From positions 10,602,001-10,666,000 of the forward strand of contig OU015566.1 in the NCBI GenBank assembly GCA_907165135.1: 64,000 nt of DNA, in the 5' to 3' direction. Below are positions 28,872-51,816 of the stretch, one piece after another (within the stretch, counting starts at the first letter, position 1; each line of letters begins with the position of its first letter). The stretch is from Oikopleura dioica. Taxonomy: Eukaryota; Animalia; Chordata. The position numbers were made by a program, and so were the translations under genes. A model generated the notes under the pieces. That model had not been told where the DNA came from. It saw nothing but the letters and a program-made list of their open reading frames with translations, and searched no databases.

Positions 28872-28921
28872 AAACTTTTTTGATATTTTCTTTTATTTAG
28901 ACATTTGAAAAAGGGGGGATC

Positions 28922-30983: not shown

Positions 30984-31237
30984 TTATACAAATCTCACAA
31001 CAATTTTATCAATTAACAACATAAATTGACAATTGAGTGGATCTTCTTGCGTCTATAAAAAATCGCAAAATTACCTAACTACCATAAAACGCTTATGTGA
31101 ACAATATTCAAGTATTTTAAATCAATTTTTCAAATTGACTCTAACCAATAATTTTTTTGCGCGATTTTAGCAAGTTTAACTACAAAGATCAAAACAAAAA
31201 ACTAAAAATTTCACACTCAACCCAATAACAAACCAAT

Positions 31238-31680: not shown

Positions 31681-31721
31681 TTCGCAACCTTGTGCGCTTG
31701 AAAATAACAAAATGTTTTTAG

Positions 31722-32527
31722 ATTTATGGCGGCGTCGGCGGTGGCGGCGATCAACAACAGGACAAGTTCTTATCAGCTATCATTTCCTCCACAACGAAAA
31801 AGGACAATGTTATTGTCTTTGACACGCCGATTACTCAAGAGCAAGACAAACAATTTGCTCAATCACCATTTCGAATGGTTGAACTTGTCGCCCAACATTG
31901 CGCCGACAATTCCGAGCACATGACGATGATTTCGGCAGCCACTTCACCACTGCCATATAGCAGCAGTGATGATGATGATGTCACCGCAACCGCTGCCGCC
32001 GATGCAACTGTCTTTTTGTCTGCATGTGACGAGACTCTGCACGCCGAAGCTGGTGATGATTCCGCCGGTGATGATGCCGCCGAAGCTGGTGATGATGCCG
32101 CCGGTGATGATGAATCTGCATGGAGTTGGATGACAAAAACTCCGCCACCAAACACTCCGCCAGCTACACCACCGCCAACGCCCGCTACAGATGACGAATG
32201 GTAAAAATTTGAAATGAAAAAATTTTGTTTTGATCTTTGTGTGTTTAGCAAAAAGAAGAAGCAGCAGGAGCAACCAAAAGCTGGAGATGAAGAAAAGGAG
32301 AATCAGCAGCCAAAAGCTGAAGATGAAGAAAAGGAGAATCAGCAGCCCCAAGAAAAGGCCCCAAGGTATGCGTACGCGCTCGCGCATTTTTCTCCAATTA
32401 TGTCTTTAGCAAGAAGAAACCAAGAAAGAAACGAATGGGGGCTGATCAATTGATTGCAAATCAATTTGGAACAAGCACACCGATTCTTGAACGCCGCGAA
32501 CGAAGACGCAAGATAAAAAATAATTAG
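31722..32527 (+). CDS. Acidic/basic exons with two KENQQP motifs (separate gene or 3' exons of the 28922 gene)
   Basis: Acceptor TTTTTAG at 31721 opens IYGGVGGGGDQQQ..., in frame with ORF 31875-32204; two more introns lead to EEKENQQPKAEDEEKENQQP and KKKPRKKR...NN*. Confidence 0.6.
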
Positions 32528-32799
32528 GAAAATCACACACACAAATTTGCACTCACACACACACAAATGCCGCTGCACGGCGCTGGTACACTTGTCAACG
32601 ACGACGGCGGCGGCGCCCCACCACTGACTATTTTTATTCCTGTCAATCAACTTTTTGTTAGTTCAAAATTCTTGAATAAAAAGTTCACTCACACAAAAAA
32701 AAACGCTGAGTCTTTTAAAATTTAAACGCTCTTCTCTTGTCGGCATTTTGTGCATGCTTTTTGCTGAAGCAGTTGCAGCAGGTGGAAAAGAGCAAAAAA

Positions 32800-33899
32800 A
32801 TGAGCAACGAAGTCGACGATCAAAAGCACCACCAATTCGGAGTATCTCACCACCACCATCACCATCCTCTCAAGTAAGCATTGATATTATTGTATTTTTT
32901 TATTTACATGTTTGCAGAGTGGAGCAAGATCGTGTTTTGATGTCTGTAGCGGAAGAAGAATTAACCCAGTTTCCACCACCACCACCAGAGCAGAGCGATC
33001 GTCTTCTACAGACAATACAGGCCTCGTCGTCCTTACTCGATCCTCAGCTCGTCTCCGCAACCGTAAACAATCATCAGCAGTCACTAGAACGGAGGAACCA
33101 AAAACCTCTCAGCAGCTTGGTATTGAATCGATCGAAACTATGGAAACGGAGATATCTTCGCCGCCGAAGAATCCAGGAGCACGAGAAATTGGAACAAGAG
33201 AGACTTCAGCGACAGGAAAGAGTAACATTGGAAACGCTGAGAGAGAGACGATCCTCGCTACAATCTCCACTTCCACCACCACCACCGCCAAAGTTGCTGT
33301 CTTGCAACCGCGACGATCAACCATTTGTCAACGTCGACAACAGAGCAATGACAATGACGCTTCCCGACCTGCGAGTGATCGCCCAACCACCACCACCACC
33401 ACCCCCACCATCGTCGTCGATGGAGAGCTCGCTTACTCCAGTAAACAGCCCAGTGAACAGCCCAGTGATGAGCCGACGGAGCCGCCGCGGCCGACGGAGC
33501 CGCAGACTAGGGTGCAACAATTGCAACAACTTCCTAATGAGACACCTGGCAATTTGTTTCACCCTTATGCTTTGCGTAATATGGTTAATCGCAGGTCTGA
33601 GCGTATTAGCAATAAAAACAACGCAGAAAAACATGCAGTCGAGAACACAGCTGGCTCACGAACTTGCCGTCAAGATGATCGAAAATCACTCTCGATTGAA
33701 GACTCACCACTCTCATCACCGTCAAAAGCCGTCAAACACTGTGTCGTCATCGACGACGACGACGACAACTCTGCAACCGATGATAATCAGCGAAAAAGGT
33801 CCAATCTTTGGAGCAACGACAATCAATCAGATTCCTGTTCAAATGACAAGCGAGTACGAAGGGGAGGGGAGCGGTATGAAGAAGAATACAAATCAATAA
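32800..33899 (+). CDS. Polinton type II membrane protein, Pro-rich cytoplasmic part, C-terminal EGEGSG
   Basis: ATG 32800 (MSNEVDDQKHHQ...HHHHHHPLK) and a 44-nt intron (32874-32917) join the 383-aa frame; TM HLAICFTLMLCVIWLIAGLSVLAI; ends ...SEYEGEGSGMKKNTNQ*. Confidence 0.65.
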
Positions 33900-35740
33900 G
33901 TAATCGACGAAATTATGCTCACAAGGTGGTGGTGGTTTCCACCGCCACCAACAATCAACAACAACAAAAACTTTCAAAAAAACCAAAATACCAAGTCAAC
34001 TATTCTCTACACCAAGTGCACGCGAAGAGATCATTAAGACATACAAAAAAATTCCGAGAAACTTTACATAAACTTATTTCCGAGAAATCGGGAATATTTG
34101 AAGGATCACCTGCCAATTTTTCCATTCGAGGTAAACGAACTCCTCGCTGGTCGAAAGCGCTCACTCACGACGAGTGGTGCAGATTACGAGATTACTTTTT
34201 CAATTCGGATGATGGCCAAGTGTTGATGCCATTTGATTTTTACAATTTTGAACGTGGCAGCGGCGGTGGCGGTGGCAGAGTGGCAAAAAAACCTCGTTTC
34301 GAGGAAGACGACGACGACGACGATTATAACCTTGACGAGAACGACGCGCACGTAGAAGGAAGTGGCTACAATGTCAATTACGAGGATGGCCGCTTCAAAC
34401 TCATCGATCATGAGTCAATTGCTTCCATGATTTCAATTGAAAACAAATCTGCCATTTTAGCCGTACTGGAATTTTTCTGGGTGATGCTTGAGATAGATTT
34501 TCAATCGCCCCCGCTCGAGACCGTTCATCATTGGAAAAGTGAACCAAATTTGGACAAAACCGACATGAGAATAATCGCCAACTCGATTCGATTGATCAAC
34601 CCAAATTTACCCAGCAACTTTTTTCAAGATGAATTCTCAACTGCTCAAGAATTTGAACAAACAAACTCTGCCGATAGCTACACAAATGGACTCGATGTTA
34701 CAAGAGAGATTCTTCATCTCCTCTCAAATAGCATTACATTTTCCTACATATCGGCAAAAATGGATGGCAAGCACTCGGCGCAAGCTTATCAACAAATTGG
34801 TGGCATTGCCGAAAAATGTGTTCTTGAAAAACCAATCCACATGAGTGACATGTACATGTACTTGGTTTATCTCGAGATGACAATTAGAGAATGCTCACCG
34901 TTTTATGAATTTACAACTTTCTTGACGGATAACAAGGAAACGATTGTAAAAATGCCTGCGAGTATTGTCGCCGATTGGCGCTCAGATCGACCACATCAAT
35001 TTCGCGAAAATTATGTTCCCACTGATAACGCGCCAAACAGTGAAAAAAGGCATGGATTGTGGAGAACATTTTGCTCGCAGGGACCTCAATCAACTGCCGA
35101 TGTTAAAACGTCAAGAAAACGATCGCTGTGCAGCACGTATAGTGAGGCGGTTGACACTGAAACTCTCAACAAAACACTTTTTCGACTCAGCATTTTAAAA
35201 CCAATGACCAGTCACCCACAAATTGCCTATTTGATGACGCTGAAACGTTTCTTTAGCGGATTCTGTTTTCTTGAGAAAAAGAAAATTGAAAAAATTTTAA
35301 AAATAACTCCCTACGAGCAAGAGATTCTCGACACGCGGCTCCTTGGCAATATGGAGAGTGAAGAACAGCGTGAACGTCGTTTCTCTCTTCAAAATCTGAT
35401 GGTTAAAGCGCGAAAACACATTTACTATCAGCATCGAGCGCGTATTAAAAATTTGCTGAGAAGAATGCTCGAAAATTATGTAAATTTTATTGCAACTTGC
35501 GGCTCTGCTCCAAGTCTATCCAAATGTCGACTTCGCCGAGTACAAACTCAACCGACGAATCCGATTGCCTTCTTTGATGATCACTACAATTCATGGGAGA
35601 TACGCTGCTCAACTTGCATTTCCAGTTACAATAACGATTACAATCGAATCGAGGGTTTTTTAAACCAGCTTGGTCATAACCACGATTTTAATCTCAAATC
35701 TGAGTTTATGTCAATGCGAAGAGCTCAGCTGCATCGGTAA
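32912..35740 (+). CDS. Large Polinton orphan ORF (942 codons), disordered N-terminus, helical C-terminal domain; probably continues after a GTAAG intron
   Basis: 2.8-kb open frame; first Met at 33140 (METEISSPPK); ends at LHR/GTAAGT donor. No family recognised. Confidence 0.8.
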   Translation: MQSGARSCFDVCSGRRINPVSTTTTRAERSSSTDNTGLVVLTRSSARLRNRKQSSAVTRTEEPKTSQQLGIESIETMETEISSPPKNPGAREIGTRETSATGKSNIGNAERETILATISTSTTTTAKVAVLQPRRSTICQRRQQSNDNDASRPASDRPTTTTTTPTIVVDGELAYSSKQPSEQPSDEPTEPPRPTEPQTRVQQLQQLPNETPGNLFHPYALRNMVNRRSERISNKNNAEKHAVENTAGSRTCRQDDRKSLSIEDSPLSSPSKAVKHCVVIDDDDDNSATDDNQRKRSNLWSNDNQSDSCSNDKRVRRGGERYEEEYKSISNRRNYAHKVVVVSTATNNQQQQKLSKKPKYQVNYSLHQVHAKRSLRHTKKFRETLHKLISEKSGIFEGSPANFSIRGKRTPRWSKALTHDEWCRLRDYFFNSDDGQVLMPFDFYNFERGSGGGGGRVAKKPRFEEDDDDDDYNLDENDAHVEGSGYNVNYEDGRFKLIDHESIASMISIENKSAILAVLEFFWVMLEIDFQSPPLETVHHWKSEPNLDKTDMRIIANSIRLINPNLPSNFFQDEFSTAQEFEQTNSADSYTNGLDVTREILHLLSNSITFSYISAKMDGKHSAQAYQQIGGIAEKCVLEKPIHMSDMYMYLVYLEMTIRECSPFYEFTTFLTDNKETIVKMPASIVADWRSDRPHQFRENYVPTDNAPNSEKRHGLWRTFCSQGPQSTADVKTSRKRSLCSTYSEAVDTETLNKTLFRLSILKPMTSHPQIAYLMTLKRFFSGFCFLEKKKIEKILKITPYEQEILDTRLLGNMESEEQRERRFSLQNLMVKARKHIYYQHRARIKNLLRRMLENYVNFIATCGSAPSLSKCRLRRVQTQPTNPIAFFDDHYNSWEIRCSTCISSYNNDYNRIEGFLNQLGHNHDFNLKSEFMSMRRAQLHR

Positions 35741-36404
35741 GTGTGTGCGCGCGCGATTGCAATCACGCACGTGCGAATGCACATTACTTCCGATTTAATT
35801 TTACTTTTTAGCGTTATGGAGAATCACAAATCAATTTTCGATTTTTTTACTCATCATAAACTCAACTTTGGTCTGCTCAATGTAAACAACAGCAGCATTC
35901 TTGCAACGGCCGCTGAAATTGCTGAAATTGATCCACATTGTGAATCCGCGTCGTCACCGCCGCCGCCGCCGCCGATGGGCGACGCGGCAGGAGAAATTAC
36001 ATCAAAAGAATCTCAATCTGCTGCATTTAACAGTAGCAGCAACAATGCAAACAATGATGATGATAAATTGATGATAGGTAAGCAAATCGAGTTCATAGCT
36101 CCTGTCTTCTAACAACATTTGTCAAGAGCCGACTTCAACAAATTGGGGCGGCAGCGGCGGCGGCGGCAACGATGGCCCCATCATTGAGATATCATCAAGC
36201 TACTCTTCAACTGATGATGAAACTGACGATCCGGTAAGCGCCACCATGTGATAACCGCGCGAGCGCCGCGCGGCGCTGCTTGTTTTACTTTAATATAAAA
36301 CCAATCATCAAAACATTACTTTCAGTCAAACAAACAACAAACAAACAAACAAAACGAAACTTTTACAGCAACACGCAAAAAACTCTTGAAGAAGCAGCGA
36401 AGAA

Positions 36405-38576
36405 ATGTCTCCACTCAAGCGGCTCTTACAAGCAACCTGCAAGAAGAGCAGCGATTTAGAGCAAAGTCTAAGCGATTCGGAGGAGGGGAGACTAGTGATT
36501 GTCGAGTCAGATTCAGAGGAGGAAGAGGAGGAGGAAGACAAGCGAGAGAGGAATCCCAAAAGACCCGCATCGACACCACCATCAAACTTGTCAACAGATC
36601 TACAACAACCAGCAAAGAGAGCAGCAATCGAGCGCCCAGCAGCAACGACAGTGCAGCAACCAGTCAAGCTACGGCTAAAGGCTTTGAAGGGTGTTGCGAA
36701 TCAGTGCCAATATTCGATGGGCACTTCAGAAAAATTGGCCTTAAAAAAATTCACCCAAAGCCACCAACTTCCAAATCAAAAAAAAATGGCGAGCATTACC
36801 TCCCCGGAATATATTTCAACCCAAACTACAATGGTGAGCGGCGGTGGCGCAAGCAAAACCGACAATCAACAGACCGAGGACGAGGTAATTTATTTTTTTT
36901 ATAAAAACAATATCAAGAAAAAATCTAGAATCTTCCGCCACCACCAATTCCACCACCAGTTGCCGAGTCAACTCCAACCAAGTTCACGACAACGCCAGAG
37001 ATGAAAACAGTCACCCCATCGTCAAAAATCGTCAACTGCAAGAGAAATCTAACGCAAGCAATATTTGGCAAAAGGTAATTTCAAAGCAAAAAATAAAGAT
37101 AAAAATTTGTTAAATTAGACAAAAACAATCGCCACCGAAACAACCAAATGTGCAAAGAATTCAACCGTCGCCAATCAAGTCAACAGTGACGCGAGAAACT
37201 CAAACAGACTTTCCACCACCACCACCACCGCAACCGCCGCGTCAGCAGATTCACAACAACTGCAGCAGCAGCAGCAGCAACCCCCCTCAATTCATCATAA
37301 CAATGACAAATTATGGTCTTTTGATGACGCCAGCCAACAATTCCAATATTCAAGTGAACGCTCTCAATCTCCCAAAAGCTCTCCACCCCATTCCTGGAAC
37401 AATGCCTCAAAACATTGGAGCCAATCGTCTTTACATGAACGTGAGCTCTTCACAACAACAACAACAACAAAAACAACAACAACAACAGCGACCAGCAAAA
37501 CCACCCCGACGGAAGAAGCAACAAAAGTCCACAACAAACTCCCCGCACCACCATCACAACAGTTCAACTGGCAGCAACAAGACTTCTGGCAGCAGCAGCA
37601 GCAGCAACAACAGTACTACTACTGGAATGGATCAATCGCAGACCATCAATCACTCGACTACAACCCCTTCAACCACGGCAACTATCACAACCACCACCAC
37701 CAATCCTCTAGATACGACCAGTCACAGTATCAACAGCGAGACCAGCACGACCAGTCACAGCAACGATTTTACAGCAGCCGACCAATGTTTTCTTCTTTCG
37801 GAAGAGAGGCAGAATGTGGACAGAGCAATTTTGGAGCAAATTTATACCGACCAATATATCAACAGAGTCACATCGACTACAGCTCCTTTTATTCAAACGA
37901 CGCCACGCCACTTTCAACAACGTCATATTACCCAACACCACCACCAACAACAGCAACAGCACCACCACCACCACAACCACCACCAACAACCAACACAACC
38001 AATCACTACAACAAACACTACCAGCACGGCGGCAACAATCAACAACAACAACAACAAAATGTCAAACAAAACAACGGCTTACAATCAACTTTTCCCAACT
38101 ACTACGGCGGCGACGACGGTCAACTATCGCAAAAAGAACACTTCCAACATTATGAACAAATTGACAAAGGACCAGCTTGCTCACTATTTTCAGCAGCAAC
38201 AGCACATGTTGGCGAGGGCAGCGGCGGCGGCGGCGGCTCAGAGACGACAACAGACAACCAATTCGACACCACAACAAATTTTTTACCAACAGCAATTATT
38301 CAACCAACAAACATTCAACAGTTGCACCCATCCAAGCAGCACCAATTCGGCACCACCAATGCCACCAACAACCAGCAACAATTCATCGTTTCTACAGCAA
38401 ATTCCACTATCTCAAATTCTGAATCAACATCAGAAAACCACCAACCCCGCCCAATTTCAACACCGATAATTTTCACAGATATTGATACAGGAGGTAACAA
38501 TTTTTTACAACAACGTTTTTATTTATGCTATCATTTTAGAAATCATCTGCAACGACAGCATCGAGTCAATTCTTGA
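36405..38576 (+). CDS. Polinton Q/T/H-rich low-complexity protein, transactivator-like, spliced
   Basis: ORFs 36405-37004 and 37150-38469 link through two short introns; acidic SDSEEGRLVIVESDSEEEEEED, RETQTD, poly-Q/poly-H tracts. Confidence 0.6.
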
Positions 38577-38695
38577 ACTTTAAAAAATACTAACATTCTT
38601 TCCACGTTATTTTGCTTCGAATCTTTACTAATAATAATGCGGTGTGCTTTTTTTTTCTAATAAAACAAACAACAAAATAATTGTTTTGTCTCAAT

Positions 38696-39638
38696 TTATT
38701 TATACATCCAGGTCAAAGGATAACTCAAAATGGCGATTTGATAAGCGAGTATGCGATGAACACGAACATTTGATTCTTTAAAAACATTGCGCCGATGAAA
38801 GGTGTTTCGCAGGATTCCATCTCGAAAAACTTGTGGCTCAATTTCACTAAGCAGTTGTTTTGCATCTTCAGCAGTGCGAATGTATTCTGTATCGTTGACT
38901 GAACCCCATCCATTGGCGTAGATTATTTCCGTTCGTGTTTTTGACTCCTTTTCGCCAGTCACGTGATTATAGACTACACTTGTTGATTTTGTGCTGTAAA
39001 AAGCGTCAACACTTATCCTTAAAAATCCAGATAGATTTTTCATAAGTAGTTCAGTAGCTTCGACAACGTCGCGATTGTTCAAAATCGTAATAACAAATCT
39101 ATCGCACATTTGACCGCCACGACCCTGAAGATCCGCTCCGGCAAGAAATTTGTTGTGTTGCCATTTTTGTTCTAAAATTTTATAAATTTTTTTATATAAG
39201 CAATATTTACAAACGAATATAATGCTTGATTGGAAATCTAAAAGAGCTATTTCCACCTGCAAGCGCTTCGATTTCTTCTTTTTCAAAGTACGAATCGTCT
39301 GGCACAATAACGGGAAAAGCATTGTCCAGAAATTTCTTTTCTTGAATAAGAATTTCATCATCAATGTTTGCAATGTTGTCATCTTTGGAAGTTGAGCGTG
39401 GTGGAAAAAACCATTGAATCTGTGAAGGCGTCAAATTAAAATCTTTTACATTGTTTGAGTAAAAATCGAGAAATTTTTTTGGAATGTTTTTTGGCAATCC
39501 ATCCTGTCGCGCTCGAAGTCTTGTCAATTTTCGAATTCTCTTAATTTCAGCAAATTGTCTGTTTGCAATTTCGCGTATCAACTGTTGAGACGGCTGCGGC
39601 GGCGGCGACGACGGTGGTGATGATGATGGTAGTGACAT
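38696..39638 (-). CDS. Polinton gene immediately downstream of PolB; candidate stand-alone terminal protein
   Basis: Exon 1 MSLPSSSPP...EEIEALA, 85-nt intron (39172-39256), exon 2 EQKWQH...FLRISVDAFY...AEDAKQLLSEI...ESNVRVHRILAYQIAILSYPL. The gene model is solid; the TP identity rests on a by-eye resemblance. Confidence 0.6.
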
Positions 39639-39684
39639 TCTTAATAAATTTTTTTGAAACAAAAATACCCGTCTATAATTTTGT

Positions 39685-42600
39685 CTAAATGAGCGTTCCA
39701 TCCGCTCTACGCAATGGATAAGTTTGTATCTTGTCACAGTCAATTATTCTCTTTTTTAAGGTCGAATTTATAACGCGTTTTTTCATTATCCAAGTTTTCA
39801 TTTTCTTGTTCTTCTGATCGTAATTGATAGTCGGCATGCTTTTCTCGATTCGCTCTTCCATATTATCAGAAAACAAAGCGGCCAAATACTCGTAATGACT
39901 AAACATAATAGCCTCTGCTATGATGCAATTTACTTACTTTAGTTTTATCTTATGGGCAACCCCTTTTGCTGACCGCTTCTTTGGGACTATATTTTGGTCA
40001 TCGCCACCACCACCGGCGCCGCTGCTGTTACCACCACCACCACCACCACTGCTTGCAAGCGCGCTGTTATACTCGTCCAGTAATTTGTAAATCTTTGATC
40101 GATTTGCAGGATCCAACAATTTTTTTTCAAAATCACTAGTGTAGCACTCGCTCATAATGTAGCATTTTGGTGATAGCGCAATAAACCAACCGCGAGAAAT
40201 TTGCTCTTCGATTTTCAATAGCCCAGGCTCCTTTTGAGATTCTGGCGCTTTTGTTGCAAACCATTTTTTAACAATAATATCGTCCCATTCTTGACGAAGC
40301 TCATCCCTTACATGCTCCTCGAGTGTCGGTCTTGTCAAAGCCAGTAAAAACGAATCAGTGTCACAATAACAGAATCGATAAGAACCCTCGCGCATGTACT
40401 TTCGTAAAACATCGAGAAATTTAAAAAATAGTAGCTTACTATTTTGATAGACAAAAATTTGAATATGAATGGCCAAATCTTCAATTATTCGCTTCTTTTT
40501 AAAGCTTACTTCGTGAAGAGGATCAACTCGATGGCCATCGGATTTAAGGGGCTCCATTTGCTTCATAAGCGGATTTCTCAAAGCTCGATACAAACCATCG
40601 GCAGCAATGATTTTCGTATCAGTAAAACGGCTTCGATTGACTGCAAAATTGCCCACACAAGAGTTTTGCAGAAATTTTGCGAGATTTGAGAGACTAACAT
40701 CTTTGTCGCGCACAGCTTGCACGCGATCGGCAACCATTGATCTGATAAACTTGTGAAAGGGTTTTCGGCGAGTGTATTGTACAAAGTACTTCAACTTGAA
40801 AGCTATGCCCTTTTTTACATAGTAGAGAAGAGTGTCAGATGTTGCCAAATAATTCTCAGCATGATAGCAAAATACATTCTCATCACATGGAAAAAGATTT
40901 TTTTTTTGCTGATCAGACAAAGTATTCAGCAAATCGCCATGAAGATCTTCAGCGCGAAGTGTTTTCTTTACAAAAATCGGCGGAATTGCTGGATGATCGG
41001 CAATCACTTGCTCAGACGAAAATAGATCAACCATGGCAAAACCATAGAAGCGACTCTCTCCATCGGCATTTGTCTCTAGCAAAACTTTTCGAAATTCGTC
41101 CTCGGTGACACCCTCATCGCCCAACGCATAACCAGTATAATTTTTTTGAGCGCCTTTAAAAATAAATGGAATACTGTCTGAAGCTGGTGCCATGTCATCC
41201 ATAACAAGTTGTCGCCACTCTTTGAGCCATTCGCAAGAATATTTTATCAAAACAACTGGCGGTGTATATGAATCGCCATCCTCGTTTTTAATGAATTCGC
41301 GAATAGCGATTATTCGTTGTGCATCGCGCTCGGCAAGTTCTTGAGCACTAAAGTAAATCGTTTTGGGATTTTTTGCATCCTTTTTGATCTTGACAACTCG
41401 CGGATTTCGCTTACACTTGAAGCAAGTGTGAAAAGAACAACCTCTGAATTCGAATATAAAGCGCTTCTTCAAACCAGTATCTTCATCAATTATTTCAGCA
41501 TATCCATCCACAAAATAATCACCAATTTGCTTTTCTTTAAAATTGTAAGAGTGTTGAATGCGCCCATACCAAATTTTATTGCTTTGAGAGTTGAGATGCT
41601 CAAGCCATTGAATAGATTGAATCGAAGAATTTTCGCGTTGTTTAAATAAACCTCTACAGAAAAATCTTTTTTCATCATCAGCAGCAGCACTGTTACACGT
41701 TGTTGTTATCGACATTGGTTCGAAAATCATACCCGGACCGCAGGGTAAAAAATGTTGAAATACAAACGGATACAAAGCGTTGAAATCCAACAGCAAGCAT
41801 TTCTTAAACAAATCGCCATTTGGCGCGCGATAAGCCGACTCTGGAACGTGTGGTTGAGCTCCATTTAAATAAATGGCGCGATGAAGCACTTGCGTTATAC
41901 CTCCAGTGAGACTCTTGCGGCAATCTCGATAAAAGTATGCAAAATCGGGTGGGATCGAGTAAATTGGCGGCGAGTCTTTATCGTAAAGTGTAAACGCCAA
42001 TCTATGAGCGATTTTTGTGATACTGATTTCAGAATGTATGCCAAGATTATACTTGGTCAAATACTTTTCAGCATATGCCGAAATCGACCCTTCCAACAAT
42101 AAAACATCATTGTAATTGTAATTGATCAAGTATTTCATCATACATGGTCTTGGTGGAGGAGGCAATGACTGTTTCTCCATTTCGCTCTTTTCACGCTGAT
42201 ACTCATCTTGCATTTCATCCCACATCTTGACACATTCTTGATAAATTCTTGGCGAAAATTTGAAAAAATCGAGAGAAGTGGCATCACGCGCATCAATCAC
42301 AGGATATGGTTGATCATCGAGTAATTTTATACACTTTCCCAAAATCAAATACAAGTGAACCGAATAGTCAAAACCATCTTCAACAAGCTTTAAAATAGTT
42401 TGGAAAATTTTTTTAGAAAACGTGTCAATGACACAAACACCATAACAAAAAAATTCAATAAGTTGCACAAATAATTTTAACTCTAAGACAGAAAATGAAG
42501 CAAAGCTAAAACTCTAGAAGTAATTTAGACACAAGAAGATAGCAATAATTTTCCAAACTACTCTCAATCGGACACTCGCGCTTTTCAAAGTACTCTTTCA

Positions 42601-45145
42601 ACGCATAATCATCTCTCAAATTGCTCAACTTCAGAAAATTGTAAACATGATCGACGATTGTTTCACGTTTCCACCTTTTTTCGTCAATCTTTTCCTTTAT
42701 AATTTCATTCATTTCGCTAATGAATTTGCTGTCCTTCATCGTCATTGTTGAATAGAAGCAAGTGTAGGCGCAAAATTTGTGTGTTTTATATAATTGATCA
42801 ATACTGCTAAACCATTCATACGGAAATGAGCCTTTTGAATAAACATCCGGGTTGAGCCCACATGATCGAGCCAGACTTTCCAACTTCATCGGGCATGTAT
42901 AGTTTTTAAAATCGCGAAAGCTCAGATTTATAGCATCAATCATCATATATCCAGAAGATCGCTTGATGATGTTGATTTGAGACGCATCGCGACCACAAAA
43001 CTCAAAGAGCGCACAAATCAAAGCCGGAAAGAGAACCACTAAATCATAACGTTCGCCAACCCAACTGTAAATTTTGAGTTTTAAAAAGTCTTTTAAATAA
43101 TTGAGCTTCTTTTTCATCATTCCCAAATCATGAAACGCCAATGTAGGATTCTTTTTTTCTTCTTCAATCTTTGACGAGTAATGTTCGATTCCGCTCTTAA
43201 TACAAGCTGGAAGATTTTTTTCAAGCTCTCTTTGCAAGTGCATTAAATACTTGATAAACTCGGCGCACATGACCAAAGCAGATTCAAAATCATTCGTCTT
43301 TCTTACAAAGCACATTTTCTCCTTTTCGCTTGTATAAGTAGCAATTGTGGCAAGATTGTGATATTTTGATTCAGTTGAAAAGGGTCCATTATTCATTAAA
43401 CATTCTATATCATAAACGGCAAAAAATTTTTGCACATAAGATGAAGAAGGCAAAAATTTTTCCTCAACAAGTTCGTGAACATGTCGATTGATGGTTTGAC
43501 AATCCTCAACACTTTGACGAATGATTGATATTGGCTCATCGGTGCACGTTTCTTCATGCTTTCTCATACGGTGTTTTCTCGATGTCGTAAACAGGCAATT
43601 CTTTGTTTTGCACTTTGGCAAAACTTTGACAGCGCTTTTGGGTAATATTCTTACGCGCGTATTATCATCAAATACATTTGGAGCCAAGCAAAAAACATTG
43701 CGAATGGGTGAATACTCGTCATCATCATTGTTGTGACCAATTGACTCGGGCAGCGGCGGCGGCGGCGGCGGCGACGACGGCGGCGAGGGCAATGTTGAAA
43801 GCGCATCTTCATGATCGCATTCTGCATTTAAAAAAGGATTATTTATAAATGATCTTTCAGAATCGGCATTGTTTGTCAAATTATCAAAATCAACAATATC
43901 GTCATCGTCATCATCGGCGGCGGCGGTGGCGGTAGGAAGCGGCGTTGTTTGCTCATCATCATCATCATCGCTATTTGCAGCACAATGATATCGATGACCA
44001 GCGGTATTACACCAATTACGAATTCTATTCATTTTATTATCACTCATGTTAACGCATTTGGCTCTTCTTCGATTAAAATCCAAGTCTTCTGAGAAAAGAG
44101 CCAAAAGACCAGGATTCTTTTGAAATCGGCGATAAGATACCGACGTCAATTTTTTAAATTCTTTTTCAAATTCATCTTCTTTATATGAAGCCACCAATAA
44201 ATTTAATTCTGTCATCTGAGAGCTTCCAATTATCTTGTATACACAAGTTTTGAGATTAACATTGTCATTCACAATTTTTCCAACGAAAAGAGCAATATTT
44301 ATTCCAAATCGAGTTCGGATTCGCTTAAAAACATCGTCGCCAATCGTAAAAACATTGAAAGATTTTTCACCGATAATTGTTTTTTTAACAAAGGTTGCTT
44401 TCTCATCAAGACGATTTCCTCCAAGATTTGGCCATTTTGTCTTTGCGATTGCTCTCCAAATTGAAATCCACTCAGAATCACATCGCTCTGCAGATTCTCG
44501 ATTAGGCAAAACATGAAAAACACCAAGACGGTGAAAAAATGGTCGAGCAGACTGTAAAACAACACGCGGGCGATCTTCATTATTACTTTTATTGGCACCT
44601 TCGAATAATTCACCAATATTTGGAACTGCGTGTAAAAACTCATCCCTTTGCGCGCGATAAGAGACACCAAGCGGTGCAAATTTTCCACCATACAGCACAT
44701 AAATATCAACGTTTAAATATCTCTCCACTTGAGATATTGTTGCTCTAGTTGGAAATTTGCCAAATTTTTCAATTAATTCAGCCGGATCTACACATGATAA
44801 TTCCTCGCGGAGAGCTCTCGTTATTTTTTTCGGTACACATGGGTATGATCTCTTGTAAAAATTCCACCATTTAATACCCATTAAAACAGCGGCATAGAAA
44901 TTTGAATAATTTTCCAAATCACCAACTGGAGCATACATCTCGCTGCTGCTGCTGCTGCTGCTACTGCTGGAATGACGTTGACGATGAGGCTCAGCTGATG
45001 TTGTAGGCTGATTATCGCCAGCATTTGAGAATCGCTCCTCAGATAATATTTGAATGTTTTTACTCTTTGTTAAAAAACGTCTGCGTCTCTTCTTAGCGGC
45101 ATTGTCTAAACCGCCAGGATGTTTCTTTGGAAGAAACCTTTTCAT
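39685..45145 (-). CDS. polB: Protein-primed family B DNA polymerase (pPolB)
   Basis: Exonuclease motifs VYDIE, GERYD, KGSFPYEW, YNYNDVLLL; polymerase motifs LDFNALYP, KFLQNSCVGNF, YCDTDS, SPKCY, KGV; nuclease-like insert (DGYAE...FEFRGCSFHTC) between motifs A and B; 39-nt intron 39899-39937; frame break near 42506. Confidence 0.95.
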
Positions 45146-45277
45146 AATCTTGAACTTCAAACACAAAAAAACACTTGTTTTTATACTTGAAAATATTTTT
45201 TATTTCACCAAACACATCACGGCGCTGTTTCTTCTTTATAGCTCAACAGCGCCCCATAATAATAGTCACGAACATAA

Positions 45278-47092
45278 TTAAGAGCCGGCTTTTCTTTTCC
45301 TCGAATTCATTTTGCTTCTGTCAGCCATTGTCGATAAAATTGTCGCCTCTAAAAATAATCAACTTTTGTAACAAAAACAAAACAAACCTTTTCGATTTCC
45401 ATCAAGCATAATAGCGTCGATTGGTATCTTCATCACAAGAACATCCCAATTTTCTTCGAGAATTTTCTCAAACGTTATTCTTGCAGTAATTGTAGAATTC
45501 TCCCCTTGTCGATCGTCAAATAGCAAAGGAACCATCCAAGATTGATTCTGAAATTGAAAAAAATCCAATCCTCCTCCAATCGATTTGTTTTCATATCGTC
45601 CATTGTGCATCAAGAAATTTTGATAGTGCTCCAGCGGATCAGTCCAAGGTGTCAAAAAAGCATTGTAATTGTCGACCAAAACCTCAAATTCCTTTATTTT
45701 AAAACCCTCCTCATGCATTGTCGTCTTTGTTATGCATCGTTGATAATCCGGTCTTTGACGCTTCTTATTAGACATACCAGTCAAAACGATCATATAAGGC
45801 ACCGGTCCAGAGCTCAACTCTACCTCATAAGTGGAGAGGCCCTTTGACAACACGTGAATTTTTAATCTAGGATAAAAAAACGGAATCTTGAGCATTTTAT
45901 CACTGTTACCAACTTTAATTGGTTTTTCGCATTCTCTCGCTTTGCAAAAAACACTCTTGAGCCAAAAATTATGAAGATTTGGCTCATGACTTTCTATACG
46001 AGCAGACTGTGCTGTTGGAATCAAATCTCTTTGTAGCCAAAAGCAAGCATAACTTTTGTCGTTAATCTTCTTGACTCGAATTTTTGGAACTTTCTTAGTG
46101 ATTTTATGCGCTTTAAAAGTCGCCTCCTTACAAATAGATGTTTTATCGGTTGCAGGTACTTCATTGACATTTAGCATCTGTTCAAGTGTTGAGACATCAT
46201 ACTCGCCACTTGTTATCTTATCTTTATAATCGTCAGGATCTTGAGGTTTCTTTGGAATTGCACAATCGCACTTATTCTTAGAATCATGAATGAGCGTTTT
46301 AGTCTCAAACTCGACTCCAGAATCTTCATTAAAAGGATATTTTAGCTCATCTGAGAAAAATTCCGTATCCTCTGATCGACACTCGATATAATCACTATGC
46401 CTCATGATATAATTTTTTGTTGGAGCAAGAATGGTATTAAACCAGAGGCGAGAAGCAGGAGGTAAGACTCGAGCTTGGCGAGCCAATCCATGAGAAATTG
46501 GTGTTTTAATCTTATAAATATGATTTTTAAACTCATATTTGACTTCCCGTTGGTCTTGCCCAATTTTAATATATCGCGCCGATTCAACGTCTTCTTCTCG
46601 CCATATAGGCGTTGCATGTAAAACTCGATTCTCAAGAGCTGTCAAATTATTACTCTTCAATCTATAATAATTCAAATCAGCGGCATCCAAATCGTAAGAA
46701 TCAAAATGACCTTCGGGAAAAAGCTCAATCTCTTGTGCTGAAGGTGAGTAGTTTAACTTTTTTATAAAATGATTAAAAAAAGTATACTCCAAACCCTCTG
46801 TGTAGGAAGAAAATATCGTACTGTCCATAATGTTAATATCCATTTTTGAAAATATCTTTGATCCAATCTCATTATCAGGAACGCAATTCGATGGTATTTC
46901 AATATCAAATTCAAATTGCATTTTGTCCAACTTGATGGGAAGTTTGTCTTTTGGAGTTTCAAATCGCCATGTAAAGGGTAAATCTTTAACTCCCAAACGC
47001 CTGACCACTTTTAACCCATTAAATGGATCCATCGGACGTTTTGAATCTTTATAAAATAAAAGATTTCCATAATCGCTTGTTGACTCGGGCAT
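45278..47092 (-). CDS. Major capsid protein (double jelly-roll, Polinton PY family)
   Basis: PDNEIGSKIFSKMDINI...KKLNYSPSAQ, PISHGLARQARVLPP, GPVPYMIVLTG and ITARITFEK...IMLDGNR follow the Polinton MCP pattern; a putative 39-nt intron (45349-45387) adds a C-terminal exon ending RKRKAGS*. Confidence 0.8.
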
Positions 47093-47187
47093 CGTTTTTT
47101 CTCTCTAAATTGACAAGTTTTGATTGAATAAAAAATACTTGCTGTTGCTGCTTATTGCTCGCTTTAATTTGTCGTTGTTGTTGTTGG

Positions 47188-47223
<36 letters not shown>

Positions 47224-47462
47224 GGATAAACTGTGATTGCTAAAAAGAGAGTTTATTTAAGAGAATTAAAAAAAGAGTTGAATGAAAATTTTTCTCTTAT
47301 CTTTAAAAGAGAATATAAAATCAAACTTATTATAGTCAATTGGATAACAAAGCAAAAAATCAGGGACGCGTATTTGTAGTTTTTGTAGAATCCATCGATA
47401 AATCCAGGAGAGCACTAAAAATTTTCTTTAAAATATGTAAGAACCGCATAGCCAGACCTTCA

Positions 47463-47639
47463 TCATCGTCGTCTCCGAGAGTACGCTCGGCGCCGACGTC
47501 GTCGTTGTTGTTGTTGTCTCCGCTTTGAAGTCTTTCTTGTCGACTTTTTTCGTTTTGTTGTGCTCCGGCGACTTGAACGTCTTTTTCTCACAAGAGGTCC
47601 CACTGAATAAACTCGTGGAAACCTCGAAATTCGAGCCAT
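47463..47639 (-). CDS. Protamine-like Arg-rich 58-aa protein (candidate virion core protein)
   Basis: MARISRFPRVYSVGPLVRKRRSSRRSTTKRKKSTRKTSKRRQQQQRRRRRRAYSRRRR*, located between integrase and MCP on the same strand. Confidence 0.65.
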   Translation of the reverse strand: MARISRFPRVYSVGPLVRKRRSSRRSTTKRKKSTRKTSKRRQQQQRRRRRRAYSRRRR

Positions 47640-47695
47640 TTGAATACACTTTAACAATCTTAATAAAAAACAATTAATTTTCAAAATATTGTTCT

Positions 47696-49801
47696 TTATT
47701 TCATCTCAGAAATAGGAATAACAACATTCAATTCATTTTCATAATATCGCCTAGATTGAGGATGACCGAATGAATTCACCAACGAAAATGTGGGAACTCT
47801 TGCTCCCTGATGTATTTGAGTAACTTGAAACAAATCTCTTGACCATTTCTCTTTAAAACCTTTGACAAAATTCTTTTTAGAATTAGCGGATCTTGCTATT
47901 CTTACAACGTCGCCTAATCCTACAAGCGATTTTCGCTTTTTATTATAAAGAGATCTTTTTTGTTCAAGATAATCAAATAAAACACGGGCATTTTTACGCG
48001 TTATAACAGAAGGAGCAACTCCAATAGTCGAATGCACAGAATTATTAATAGCTGTGTTGACTTCTTGAAGTATGTGGATCCAGCGTTGAACGCCACCAGA
48101 AGCAGTAAAATAACGACCCAAGCGAGCTTCCAACGTTCCGCTAAAATTTTTTGTTAGAGTAAAAATCACTTATAAAATACTCACTTGAATCGCTCGACAA
48201 GAGCCGCCTTGTGCCTACCCTGAAGATGAACAGGTGTCATCGACCAACGGGCAAGCAAATCATAAGTATCTTTTTCAAATTCAACGCCTTGATCAGAACA
48301 AAAAAGTGTGTCCAGGAAGATCTTCGCCTATTTTAACAAAAATTGATTCCAATTCTTTGGCAATTTCAGCAGATTTAAGAGATACTAAAGGAGCAACAAA
48401 ACTTTTACGCGAAAGACCATCAATAACAGTGAGAATATATTTGTAGCCATTGTTTAAATGGGCATAATTTTTGAACGCTGCAATAGTGTCGGAAAACAAA
48501 CATGTAAACAAACCAGTAGCGATAATTGGATTACGCTCGAAATTTGATTTAAATGGTTTATGTAAAGATATAGCATTATTCATACGTTTAAAGCGAGCCA
48601 AATTCATACCACTATAAAAAGAAGGGTTTTTACTATTATAAAACAAATCAAGGGCTGGACTTGAACGTTGAGAAAAAAGCGGCGCCTCAAAAGTTGCGCT
48701 GTTAACCCCAGAAGTTGTCGATGTCTGCTCCCCCACTTCCTCTTCCGCCGCTGGGGCCTCCGTCGCCGCCGATTGATTCATTCTCGTCAATGTAGAGTCG
48801 ATCGTCATCGGACTCCTCATCTGATCGAGATTCAATCCCGTCTGGGTCATAATAGTGGGATTTTTTGATTGCGCTTGAAGTTGGAGAGACGGTGTTCTTA
48901 CTAGACGATTTGGGTTTATTAGCGAGTTTTCGCGATTTTGCGTCTCGAACGGTAGTGACACGTCCAGCGGTTCTCTTTCGCTTTGATCGCTTTGAAATGC
49001 GTTCACTCTCGTACCCGCCGTCTTCGTTAGGGTCGACGTCGGCGTCGTCATAAGCGTTGTTGTAAAATGGCGTTTGCTCTCTGATGCGGCGTCTTCCGTT
49101 GATTCGGGCAACTCTTGAATTCGATTTGACGCTATTGGCAATAGATTCCGCCTCGGAGATGTCTTCGTCACTTGCAATTGAATCGGAAAACTCAATTGCC
49201 CTTTTTCGTTTCGAGTTCCGATTACTTGCGTTAGAAATTGCACTCCTCCATTTTCGGTAATCATTGCTGGTGATAGGATACTCTTTGAGGCGACTTGGGC
49301 GAAGGAGTGGTTTACGGGGATTTTTCGTAACTGGTTCAGGTTCCGCGAAATTTGATCTTTCCACACGGCCAGATCGCTTTGATTTGACAACTGGACTTGC
49401 TGAATCGGCGTCGGCTCCCCGTCGTTTACGAATTTTGACGCGTCGCGCATCTCTTCGGGCGCTTGTTGCTCGAGTAACGGGCTTTCTTGAAAGCTTACTA
49501 CGCTTAGATCGCGCTTGGAGTTTTTGTCGTCGAGTTTTTGCCTCTTGCTCGAGTTTTTTGATTTTGAATTCTTCCTCGTCTTCCGAGTTTGAGAATTGGT
49601 CAATTTCTGCTTCGCTTTCTCCATCGCTTTCTCCTTCGCTTTCGCTTTCCGATAAGCTTCTTTTTCTGCTTTTTCTCGTTGCTCGATCACTTCCGTAAGG
49701 AATTTCTCTGTTGCATACACCGGCGATAGTGCGGGCGCTCGCGTCCTCGTCGGTCTCATAATCGGGATATGGTTCTGCTTTGGTCTTTGGTGCAATAACA
49801 C
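47696..49801 (-). CDS. int: Retroviral-type (rve/DDE) integrase with long N-terminal extension and C-terminal chromo-like part; one frameshift
   Basis: LFYNSKNPSFYSG, FSDT, YILTVIDGLSR, then in the shifted frame SDQGVEF and KAALVERFNGTL, NNSVHSTIGVAP, KGFKEKWS, YYENEL; 44-nt intron 48141-48184; extra T in a T6 run at ~48300-48305. Confidence 0.93.
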
Positions 49802-49901
49802 GAATTCGATTTGTCTTTGGATTCAGTTCCCAAAATGAAGCAATATTATCCAAAATTGATAATCGAACGAAACAACCACCGTTTACCAGTGCGTTATTCA
49901 T
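48702..49901 (-). CDS. 399-aa R/S/K/D/E-rich protein overlapping the integrase frame
   Basis: ATG directly after a splice acceptor (AAATCAG/GATG); open for 399 codons; mixed acidic and basic tracts. Confidence 0.65.
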   Translation of the reverse strand: MNNALVNGGCFVRLSILDNIASFWELNPKTNRIRVIAPKTKAEPYPDYETDEDASARTIAGVCNREIPYGSDRATRKSRKRSLSESESEGESDGESEAEIDQFSNSEDEEEFKIKKLEQEAKTRRQKLQARSKRSKLSRKPVTRATSARRDARRVKIRKRRGADADSASPVVKSKRSGRVERSNFAEPEPVTKNPRKPLLRPSRLKEYPITSNDYRKWRSAISNASNRNSKRKRAIEFSDSIASDEDISEAESIANSVKSNSRVARINGRRRIREQTPFYNNAYDDADVDPNEDGGYESERISKRSKRKRTAGRVTTVRDAKSRKLANKPKSSSKNTVSPTSSAIKKSHYYDPDGIESRSDEESDDDRLYIDENESIGGDGGPSGGRGSGGADIDNFWG

Positions 49902-50141
49902 CCTGATTTAAAAAAATAGCAAAATAAATTAAATTTACGACTTACCTTGGGTCAAATTGCAGTTTTTACTGTTTGCGGCTTCTTCTTCAGAAGAATAATT
50001 ATAAATGAATAAATACAAACAAAAATTATATTATATAATTATAAAAATGGTGCTAAGACGACAATCACGCCACCATGCGGATTTTATAAATAAGTGAGTA
50101 TAAATACTCTTGCTCTTGCACCATTCTATCACAACTCAAAA

Positions 50142-50567
50142 ATGTTTCAACATCTTAATTTTGATCAACTTCAACAAATCAGCGCCAAGTCAAAACGAGC
50201 TAGAATTTTGAAATCAAACTTCAACCATCACGTCATCAAAACAAAGGAGCAATATTACATCAAGGCAAGCATTGCGGAACTTGTTGACGCTGAAGGAGAA
50301 GAAAAGTTCGGCATTGAAAAATTGGAGCTTAACAAGACGGCTACCTTTGCGCTAATTGAGAATAATTTCAATCTTGACTGTCCGAAAACACGCAACTGGT
50401 TCAAAAAAGAAGTGCCAGAAGCTCTTCGAAGAGAAAACACTCTTATCGTCTCAATCTACGAGTACCAGCCTCAAGCCGAAGAGTACAAAGGCAAATACAT
50501 CACCGATCCTGAATCTCAGATCGACGGGCGATTCGTCATCTGTGGATTGAAATGCCCCAGCATATAA
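50142..50567 (+). CDS. Small Polinton orphan protein upstream of the ATPase
   Basis: ORF of ~141 aa from ATG 50142; overlaps the ATPase start by 16 nt. Confidence 0.65.
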   Translation: MFQHLNFDQLQQISAKSKRARILKSNFNHHVIKTKEQYYIKASIAELVDAEGEEKFGIEKLELNKTATFALIENNFNLDCPKTRNWFKKEVPEALRRENTLIVSIYEYQPQAEEYKGKYITDPESQIDGRFVICGLKCPSI

Positions 50568-51283
50568 TCAAATGGGTGCCCGATCCGCGCTTTCAACATC
50601 CTAGCGCGCTTCTTATATCGGGAACCACTGGTGCAGGTAAAAGTTATTTTGTAAAAAATATTATTGAGAAAGAGGGGATAGTAGGAGACATTAAACATAT
50701 TTATTATTTTATGCCTAGATTAGAAAACTTGGATATTCAACCATTGGCTCATCAACAATTATACCTGATGGAAGGTTTGCCTTCTAAAAACTGGGTTGAT
50801 GATACATTTAAAAGTGAAAATAAAAATTGTATGATAATTGTTGATGATATGTGGTCTAAATGCGTAGAAGATCCAGTCATTGAATATCTTTTAACATATG
50901 GTCGTAGGCACTTCAATGTCTCGCTCATCTTTATCGCTCAAAACTTTTACGAAAAGAGTCGAAAGGCGATCACTCTCAGGTACGTTGTTTACATGTTTGC
51001 AATTTTATTAAACCTTATATTTAGAAACTGTATGACTGCATATGTTTTATTCAAAAATAATACCGACACTGGTATGAATAAAACAATTGCAACGAAAACA
51101 GGAGAAGTGGACGCCTACAATTCAGCAATGAAACTCTTTAAAGAAAGAAGAATTCCTGCCTACTCGTACGTTATATTCAATCGAGATACCATAAACATGG
51201 ATCAAGCTACTGTACTTACAAATTACTTTGGTGAAATACCAGGTCTTGGACCTTGGTTATGGATTTTCGGGTATAATGACTGA
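50552..51283 (+). CDS. A32/FtsK-HerA-like genome-packaging ATPase
   Basis: DPRFQHP, Walker A GTTGAGKS, Walker B MIIVDD, GRRHFNVSLIFIAQN; removing a 45-nt intron (50980-51024) gives ITLRNCMTAYVLFKN, closer to the family pattern. Confidence 0.93.
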   Translation: MPQHIIKWVPDPRFQHPSALLISGTTGAGKSYFVKNIIEKEGIVGDIKHIYYFMPRLENLDIQPLAHQQLYLMEGLPSKNWVDDTFKSENKNCMIIVDDMWSKCVEDPVIEYLLTYGRRHFNVSLIFIAQNFYEKSRKAITLRYVVYMFAILLNLIFRNCMTAYVLFKNNTDTGMNKTIATKTGEVDAYNSAMKLFKERRIPAYSYVIFNRDTINMDQATVLTNYFGEIPGLGPWLWIFGYND

Positions 51284-51287
51284 TTTG

Positions 51288-51318
<31 letters not shown>

Positions 51319-51498
51319 AATAAAATTGGGCATGTAAATAACTCGTTGTTTTTATTTTTGTTTATTTCATTGATAGAATGAATTGGGAATATGTCGTTTT
51401 TCAAGTTTGGTCAAAAAAAGATTGAATATTATTTTATCAAATTGGCAAAGAATCAAATAAAATAAAGAATGATCGAGGCAAGTCGCGCATTATGGTGT

Positions 51499-51816
51499 TT
51501 AGAGCAATCGCAATTGAGTATACTTGAATCGAACAGAGTAGCTCCGACGAATGGTGGCATATTTCAAAGTCTCCTCATCGTAAGTTGACGGTAAGCAAAT
51601 GGGTTCCTCTTTTGAGATGCGTTTTACAGATGCAACGGAAGCAGCTGTAATTGCTCCAACAGGTTTGATTTCTTCCGCATCGCAAAAGCATTCTTCAATC
51701 TCACTAACTGGATATCGAAGAGTAGTCACGATTGGATTTGCTTTTTTGAAAAATTTGACAATTCTTTTAGTAAAAGACTTTTTCTCTGGCTGAATTTTTT
51801 CAATCTTGACAATCAT
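51499..51816 (-). CDS. Small Polinton orphan ORF (105 aa)
   Basis: ATG-initiated ORF in AT-rich context; no motif recognised. Confidence 0.45.
   Translation of the reverse strand: MIVKIEKIQPEKKSFTKRIVKFFKKANPIVTTLRYPVSEIEECFCDAEEIKPVGAITAASVASVKRISKEEPICLPSTYDEETLKYATIRRSYSVRFKYTQLRLL

What the first reader, a model, noticed from the sequence alone, without database searches (positions are those of the whole stretch)
38696..45145. Possible adenovirus-like split: separate terminal-protein gene and pPolB with tandem, apparently inactive vOTU-like domains
Knowledge: structural work on Preplasmiviricota found Polinton pPolB arranged as TP-vOTU-exonuclease-polymerase, with vOTU inactivated in adenoviruses where TP is a separate gene. 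Seen: this PolB starts almost directly with two blocks resembling the vOTU region (ENYSNFYAAVL...FPTRATISQVERYLNVDIYV and SEWISIWRAIA...FGINIALF), neither with Cys at the expected DNxCF position, and no TP-sized region precedes them. The adjacent downstream gene ends with ESNVRVHRILAYQIAILSYPL, resembling the GSGW...Y.PL end of Polinton TP regions. Inference: independent fission of TP from PolB.
Basis: partly seen in the sequence, partly recalled or inferred. Interest (0 to 1): 0.8.

Follow-up and report, generated by a model that had tools for sequence, protein, structure and literature searches.

The report
Polinton with relocated terminal-protein gene
In this 37-kb virus-like element of an animal genome, the protein predicted to prime DNA copying has its own gene behind the polymerase instead of being the polymerase's front end, and the polymerase starts with one and probably two protease-like domains that lack the cutting cysteine, likely a separate arrival at the layout adenoviruses use.

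Summary
Largely confirmed; a variant of a known theme. The genes lie in a 37,152-bp Polinton (TIRs, 6-bp target duplication) whose named relatives are Oikopleura dioica gene models. PolB opens with a short basic leader, then a block that folds as an OTU domain (top 24 of 50 structural rows are OTU-type deubiquitinases) with Asn at the cysteine position in 8 of 8 sequences. A second block aligns with a Polinton vOTU only weakly (z 2.3-2.6) and was not resolved in the model. The downstream spliced gene (~299 aa) folds confidently (pLDDT 85.6) in the terminal-protein topology. Its best viral matches are an adintovirus protein and a MELD-virus PolB. A Ser in the linking loop is invariant in 20 of 20 rows. 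Two relatives share the gene order, under strong purifying selection. A separate TP gene in a Polinton is already published (coral; vOTU active), and this scan noted split TP with dead vOTU in other genomes. What is distinct here: TP behind PolB, an N-terminal extension, and the probable tandem dead vOTU. Function is untested, and independence from adenoviruses was not tested by a tree.

The parts
17272..54423 (.). Whole Polinton/Maverick element, 37,152 bp; terminal inverted repeats begin AGTAGT; 6-bp target-site duplication CGCAGC
   Evidence: self-blastn TIR match 17258-17461 / 54234-54438 at 82%; ends and flanks printed
42506..45145 (-). PolB first reading frame (879 aa): basic leader, vOTU-like blocks, acidic insert, zinc knuckle, exonuclease motifs I-II
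   Evidence: 43-51% identity to 6 long homologs; M-x-R-x-L/C-P start shared by window, P0001, P0002, P0004, P0007, L001, L002
44501..44914 (-). Block 1 (PolB residues 78-215): OTU-fold domain, Asn82 at the inferred catalytic Cys position
   Evidence: AF2 model; VIA search, best 4boz Z 6.6, rmsd 3.6, 106 aligned; Asn in 8 of 8 rows
44186..44479 (-). Block 2 (residues 223-320): probable second vOTU-like domain, Ser228 at the inferred Cys position
   Evidence: global alignment to L003 vOTU z 2.6 and to block 1 z 2.3; Ser in 7 of 8 rows, His in 1; not resolved in the model
43718..44185 (-). Helical stretch plus acidic low-complexity insert between block 2 and its probable last strand
   Evidence: 117-319 residues, 19-33% Asp+Glu across 8 rows
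43544..43717 (-). EYSPI strand (inferred equivalent of the vOTU H-Y-x-x-I strand, His replaced) and C-C-H-C zinc knuckle
   Evidence: no His at this column in 8 of 8 rows; knuckle aligns with the one after the L003 vOTU, z 4.3
39934..42294 (-). PolB second reading frame: exonuclease III, palm motifs DFNALYP, LQNSCVGNFA, YCDTDS, and a VSR-like insertion (label recalled)
   Evidence: Pfam DNA_pol_B_2 E 3.5e-13; tblastn with P0002
39685..39933 (-). Last PolB exon and stop, ending YPLRRADGTLI, an end shared with full-length homologs
39215..39638 (-). TP gene exon 1: ~141-codon N-terminal extension with a basic patch
   Evidence: tblastn of the stand-alone O. dioica model P0013 hits it at 33%
39172..39214 (-). 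43-nt GT-AG intron (predicted), same position as in L001 and L002
   Evidence: not confirmed by RNA
38696..39171 (-). TP gene exon 2: predicted terminal-protein core, beta0-beta1-alpha1-beta2-beta3-alpha2-beta4
   Evidence: AF2 pLDDT 85.6; fold searches
38771..38773 (-). Ser codon in the alpha2-beta4 loop, predicted DNA-linking residue
   Evidence: Ser in 20 of 20 rows covering the column, 22 rows aligned
45359..47092 (-). 577-aa ORF upstream of PolB, possible major capsid protein
   Evidence: conserved at 36% in the same place in L001 and L002; comparison with the capsid-like ORF of L003 not significant
47696..48577 (-). Integrase-like gene in several reading frames
   Evidence: tblastn with the integrase-like ORF of L003, E 1.7e-14; integrase label recalled from motifs
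50552..51283 (+). Packaging ATPase
   Evidence: Pfam Pox_A32 E 1.2e-8

Best explanation
This Polinton lineage carries a separate gene right behind polB whose product has the predicted fold of a terminal protein and likely primes DNA replication in trans through a conserved serine, while the polymerase begins with an OTU-fold domain, and probably a second one, that lacks the catalytic cysteine and so is predicted not to cut. Shown: gene order, own start and stop, no TP-like sequence in the PolB N-terminus, missing Cys, invariant Ser, purifying selection. Inferred: PolB links the first nucleotide to that Ser at the terminal repeats; once TP was made separately the self-cleaving protease was no longer needed; the dead domains are kept as a structural or binding module; the ~140-residue extension serves to bind PolB or DNA, as proposed for stand-alone TPs; the split arose within Polintons apart from adenoviruses.
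For: TP: secondary-structure order matches the published TP/D1 fold. BFVD ranks 1-2 are a Drosophila adintovirus protein (E 8.5e-4, prob 0.99) and a MELD-virus PolB segment (E 2.9e-3, prob 0.96). 9 of 50 VIA rows are Y-family polymerase little-finger regions, Z 3.9-4.9, including 4ir1 and 1unn, the chains the paper's TP models hit. Ser is invariant in the alpha2-beta4 loop, where linking residues lie. The TP exon is the most conserved of five segments between L001 and L002 (91% identity, dN 0.07, synonymous sites saturated). Separation: same order in window, L001, L002; stand-alone 272-aa O. dioica model P0013; the TP profile finds one strong hit in the window and none in 7 of 7 PolB homologs P0001-P0007. 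vOTU: top 24 of 50 VIA rows are OTU-type deubiquitinases over model residues 1-159; blocks 1 and 2 have dN 0.23 and 0.26 against dS of 1.5 or saturated.
Against: TP fold matches are modest. BFVD TM-scores by query are 0.35-0.37 with rmsd 8-13 A and matched ranges are not shown. Five unrelated chains score Z 5.5-5.6, above the Y-family rows. The Gly or Pro that the paper finds near all linking residues is absent in the window copy and present in a minority of rows. hhalign of the TP profile against the L003 TP-like ORF and of block 1 against block 2 gave no signal; global alignment of the TP profile to L003 reached only z 2.1. Block 2 has pLDDT under 50 over most of its length and the whole PolB model averages 51.5. 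Catalytic positions come from motif register, not residue-level superposition; block 1 has an invariant His two places past the inferred site. Two O. dioica gene models join this domain to the C-terminal side of PolB. No tree with adenoviruses was built.
Confidence: 0.78

Rival explanations
1. Only one vOTU is present. Block 1 is the vOTU and block 2 is an unrelated or unrecognisably changed domain. The separate TP gene stands either way.
For: hhalign block 1 vs block 2 gave nothing; local profile scores were weak, z 0.9-2.5; block 2 was unresolved and drew no structural rows.
Against: Global alignment puts SIWRAI on the SPFRAI helix of the L003 vOTU and GINIALF on SINVY (z 2.6; 1 of 150 shuffles reached it), no worse than block 1 scores (z 2.0), while the adjacent control segment scores z -1.1. 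Block 2 leads, after the insert, into a Y-x-P-I strand and the zinc knuckle that follow the vOTU in L003. Segment ends were chosen by hand.
Confidence: 0.25
2. TP moved to the other end: it is spliced onto the PolB C-terminus as one protein and is not a separate gene.
For: O. dioica gene models P0008 and P0012 join PolB to this domain; only 46 nt separate the PolB stop from the TP ATG, and a U-rich tract ending TAAG precedes that ATG in window and L001.
Against: The two models use different joints and each drops conserved PolB C-terminal sequence; P0013 is a stand-alone model; the PolB stop follows a conserved terminal motif in window, L001, L002, P0002, P0005, P0006.
Confidence: 0.07
3. The downstream gene is not a terminal protein but another small alpha/beta protein with a similar topology.
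For: Middling Z-scores tied with unrelated folds; no Pfam or PDB sequence match; no Gly or Pro by the Ser in this copy.
Against: Two independent libraries point to TP-type neighbours; invariant Ser at the linking position; no other TP candidate found in the element or PolB; fixed position beside polB in 3 of 3 loci of this lineage.
Confidence: 0.09
4. The split is inherited from the same ancestor as the adenovirus split, not independent.
For: Same two traits (separate TP, dead vOTU); the paper suggests adenovirids may come from polintons with detached TP.
Against: No helical insertion between beta1 and alpha1, which marks adenovirid pTP; no Pfam adenovirus terminal-protein match; nearest structural matches are adintovirus or MELD proteins; integrase-like gene, A32 ATPase and target duplication present. 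No tree was built.
Confidence: 0.06

Closest known systems
Stylophora pistillata polinton with separate TP gene (Krupovic, Kuhn, Fischer, Koonin 2024, PMC11161782)
   Same: Polinton with TP on its own gene and vOTU at the PolB N-terminus
   Different: There the vOTU is catalytically intact. Here the Cys is gone, the domain is probably doubled, and TP lies downstream of polB. The position of the coral TP gene is in a figure I could not see.
Adenoviridae pTP plus polymerase with inactivated vOTU (PMC11161782)
   Same: Stand-alone TP with terminal extension, Ser as linking residue (predicted here), dead vOTU retained on the polymerase
   Different: No large helical insertion between beta1 and alpha1; ~299 aa; integrating element with TIRs, target duplication, integrase-like gene and A32 ATPase
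Canonical Polinton/adintovirus pPolB, TP-vOTU-exonuclease-palm (P1-CB; Alpha adintoviruses, PMC8502044)
   Same: Pfam PF03175 polymerase with N-terminal OTU-fold domain; TP-fold domain in the element
   Different: TP not fused; protease residues replaced; 117-319-residue acidic insert; PolB of about 1,800 aa in full-length relatives
Tectivirus PRD1 terminal protein (as described in PMC11161782)
   Same: Separate gene, same predicted core topology, N-terminal extension
   Different: Tyr is the linking residue in PRD1; PRD1 polymerase has no vOTU; no direct PRD1 match appeared in my searches

Membership tests
Polinton/Maverick | Terminal inverted repeats and 6-bp target-site duplication (feature recalled) | tested here: met
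Polinton/Maverick | Protein-primed-type family B polymerase with catalytic motifs | tested here: met
   Pfam PF03175 E 3.5e-13; motifs read; TPR1/TPR2 not examined
Polinton/Maverick | Packaging ATPase | tested here: met
   Pox_A32 E 1.2e-8
Polinton/Maverick | Retrovirus-like integrase | tested here: met
   tblastn E 1.7e-14 with the integrase-like ORF of L003; that label is from recalled motifs, and Pfam gave no integrase hit on the two pieces scanned
Polinton/Maverick | [quoted passage not shown] | tested here: inconclusive
   577-aa candidate; hhalign E 0.66; no PDB sequence match
Polinton/Maverick | Ulp1/adenain protease | tested here: inconclusive
   one-query tblastn and motif scan found none; a spliced or divergent gene could be missed
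Canonical Polinton pPolB | TP fused at the N-terminus, ahead of vOTU | tested here: not met
   first folded domain is OTU-like; TP profile has no hit in 7 of 7 PolB homologs
PRD1-like terminal protein (TP/D1) | Four-stranded sheet plus two helices, optional beta0 | tested here: met
   DSSP order on a pLDDT 85.6 model; sheet order inferred from little-finger matches
PRD1-like terminal protein (TP/D1) | Structural similarity to Y-family little finger/PAD and to Polinton D1 | tested here: met
   9 of 50 VIA rows, Z 3.9-4.9, tied with unrelated folds; BFVD ranks 1-2 with low TM-scores; modest strength
PRD1-like terminal protein (TP/D1) | Ser or Tyr in the loop between alpha2 and beta4 | tested here: met
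   Ser in 20 of 20 covering rows
PRD1-like terminal protein (TP/D1) | Gly or Pro near the linking residue (accompanying trait in PMC11161782) | tested here: not met
   none in the window copy; Gly at -2 in L001 and L002; minority of rows overall
PRD1-like terminal protein (TP/D1) | Covalent nucleotide linkage and priming | not testable with these tools
   needs biochemistry
OTU-fold domain, block 1 | OTU fold | tested here: met
   top 24 of 50 VIA rows; best Z 6.6, rmsd 3.6, 106 aligned
OTU-fold domain, block 2 | OTU fold | tested here: inconclusive
   unresolved model; alignment z 2.3-2.6; hhalign blank
Active vOTU protease | Catalytic Cys in alpha1 and His in beta4 | tested here: not met
   Asn in 8 of 8 (block 1); Ser 7, His 1 of 8 (block 2); His position Thr/Val or Glu/Thr/Val/Gly by motif register
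Adenovirid pTP | Large helical insertion between beta1 and alpha1 | tested here: not met
   beta1 residues 20-30 run into alpha1 35-45
Adenovirid replication module | Phylogenetic grouping with adenovirids | not tested
   no adenovirus sequences were at hand from the tools

The most novel reading that the evidence does not exclude
Larvacean-type Polintons reached the full adenovirus-style two-gene replication module on their own and went further: TP was moved behind polB, gained a new extension, and is expressed as a downstream trans-spliced operon gene, while the dead vOTU was duplicated into a tandem pseudo-protease adaptor that binds TP or ubiquitin. That would give a small, natural model for what the retained dead vOTU of adenovirus polymerase does.
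Probability: 0.25. Interest if true: 0.72.

Novelty: new variant of a known kind. Interest (0 to 1): 0.5.

Why it matters
The 2024 model says vOTU cuts TP off the polymerase and dies once TP is its own gene. The published coral case has the split with a live protease. This lineage has both steps, fixed across relatives at 40-50% identity and under purifying selection, which fits the model's prediction. It shows that dead vOTU domains are kept and perhaps doubled, so they likely do a non-catalytic job. It also names a single testable linking residue in a stand-alone Polinton TP.

Tried and rejected
No whole genome was held, so copy number and other copies were not examined. A word-based search for longer TP relatives found 0 of 221 candidates. 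Pfam, NCBIfam and PDB sequence searches did not recognise TP, the vOTU blocks or the capsid candidate. Foldseek of the PolB N-terminal model against BFVD gave nothing at E up to 0.001; Foldseek of TP against PDB gave nothing at that level, top row polymerase kappa at E 0.07. No PRD1 TP or adenovirus pTP row appeared in the lists shown, which excludes nothing. Complex prediction of the vOTU region with the TP core returned no verdict, score 0.00, alignments unused. No RNA holder was listed; 4 raw RNA runs gave 91 reads, all partial matches, so introns and expression are unconfirmed. Of 32 HMMER hits for TP, 11 long multi-stretch proteins or PolB-joined models were left out of the folding alignment; 19 plus the 3 seeds were used, and the two PolB-joined models were read separately. 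The O. dioica model P0006 joins the upstream 577-aa gene to a partial PolB and was treated as a prediction artefact. Literature: searches for Oikopleura with Maverick or Polinton gave 3 papers each, none on this by title or abstract; searches on Polinton TP and vOTU showed no report of a downstream TP gene or tandem vOTU; the library is incomplete. Figures S4 and S8 of PMC11161782 are images that I could not see and bear on residue register and on where the coral TP gene lies.

Full report
Setting. The finding lies in a complete Polinton/Maverick at 17272-54423 (37,152 bp). Its ends are inverted repeats starting AGTAGT, flanked by the duplicated hexamer CGCAGC. It encodes a PF03175 polymerase and an A32-type ATPase and an integrase-like gene. 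Named relatives of both PolB and the downstream gene are Oikopleura dioica gene models, so the host is likely a larvacean; that is an inference. Genes are spliced, with short introns.

PolB N-terminus. The quoted motifs are all present. Six long homologs (1,548-1,879 aa) and one partial were found. Five of the long ones and the partial share the two blocks; the sixth, P0006, is a model fused to the upstream gene and lacks them. An M-x-R-x-L/C-P start recurs in the window, four database proteins, and as a short first exon in L001 and L002. Only 213 nt lie between the upstream ORF's stop and the PolB ATG. A profile of the downstream protein hits none of the 7 PolB homologs and only one place in the window strongly. 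An upstream TP exon is therefore unlikely.

Block 1. An AlphaFold model of residues 68-551 from 8 sequences has mean pLDDT 51.5 but 60-88 over most of block 1. The top 24 of 50 structural rows are OTU-type deubiquitinases over model residues 1-159, best OTUD2 at Z 6.6, rmsd 3.6, 106 aligned. Several are the chains that published vOTU models hit. By motif register the cysteine position is Asn in 8 of 8 rows and the histidine position Thr or Val; an invariant His lies two residues further on. With no Cys there, it is predicted to be inactive.

Block 2. It was not resolved in the model, and hhalign against block 1 gave nothing. Global alignment places its first helix and central strand on those of the L003 vOTU (z 2.6) and of block 1 (z 2.3); the neighbouring control segment scores about -1. 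Local scores were weaker. After an acidic insert of 117-319 residues comes a Y-x-P-I strand without His and the zinc knuckle that follows the vOTU in L003. I put a second vOTU at about 70-75%.

Downstream gene. It has two exons, about 299 aa in all, with a predicted 43-nt intron at the same site in L001 and L002. Both loci have it directly after polB. HMMER over 1.84 billion proteins gave 32 hits, including a stand-alone 272-aa O. dioica model and two models that join it behind PolB by different joints. The second exon, folded with 22 sequences, has pLDDT 85.6 and the order beta0-beta1-alpha1-beta2-beta3-alpha2-beta4, the published TP/D1 topology. The best BFVD matches are a Drosophila adintovirus protein and a MELD-virus PolB segment, with low TM-scores of 0.35-0.37. 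Nine of 50 PDB rows are Y-family little-finger regions at Z 3.9-4.9, below five unrelated chains at 5.5-5.6. A Ser in the alpha2-beta4 loop is invariant in 20 of 20 covering rows; the Gly or Pro reported near linking residues is missing in this copy. Between L001 and L002 this exon is 91% identical with saturated synonymous sites, more conserved than the palm segment (86%); blocks 1 and 2 are 72% identical.

Mechanism. Most likely the separate TP binds PolB in trans, receives the first nucleotide on the Ser and primes copying from the terminal repeats. With no fusion to cut, the protease lost its catalytic residues, yet selection keeps the domains, so they likely have a structural or binding role. 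These steps are inferred.

What is known. Krupovic et al. 2024 (PMC11161782; I read parts 1-4 of 6 and the supplement text) define TP-vOTU-exonuclease-palm, report dead vOTU in adenovirids, and state that the TP split occurred independently in polintons, with a coral example whose vOTU is active. For PMC8502044, PMC12721341, PMC11296320, PMC10748475 and two 2026 preprints I saw keyword passages only. Earlier notes of this scan describe split TP with dead vOTU in five other genomes; none matched this TP family by sequence. L003, fetched here, shows an in-place split with Ser for Cys. So the split with inactivation recurs. I found no report of a downstream TP gene or a tandem vOTU in the searches listed.

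Open points. The joint between the first two PolB frames (about 42560-42320) may be intron or lesion; relatives are continuous there. No RNA support was obtained. No tree was built. Verdict: real, well supported for the separate TP and first dead vOTU, a new variant of a known kind, interest 0.5.

Noticed in passing
L003:4574-8811: Another Polinton with a TP-like ORF carrying two C2H2 fingers whose stop overlaps the PolB start (TAATG); its vOTU has Ser in place of Cys but keeps His. An in-place split in a different lineage, or a single-copy lesion.
   Followed up: partly
window 39639-39670; L001 about 6960-6990: U-rich tract ending TAAG right before the TP ATG in both, like a splice acceptor; possibly trans-splicing of a downstream operon gene.
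   Followed up: partly
window 42320-42560: PolB changes frame where relatives are continuous; intron or lesion unresolved.
   Followed up: partly
L001 about 7420-7460; L002 about 12985-13028: The TP intron appears to have GC-AG ends in both relatives and GT-AG in the window.
   Followed up: partly
window 47696-49901: Two long ORFs overlap on the same strand in different frames ahead of the integrase core; L002 has the same arrangement on its own strand.
   Followed up: no
window 17272-38600: The element is large and its left 21 kb holds many low-complexity spliced ORFs, among them an 866-aa ORF at 33140-35740 with no Pfam match; no adenain-type protease was found.
   Followed up: partly
window 9903-10322 and 57724-58143: 420-nt inverted repeat pair, 97% complementary, 47 kb apart, outside the Polinton; the left copy sits in a foldback region at 9575-11036.
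   Followed up: no
window 54639-55943: Tandem array with a 56-nt period just outside the right end of the element.
   Followed up: no
window 3602-9477: Run of long minus-strand ORFs of unknown kind left of the foldback region.
   Followed up: no
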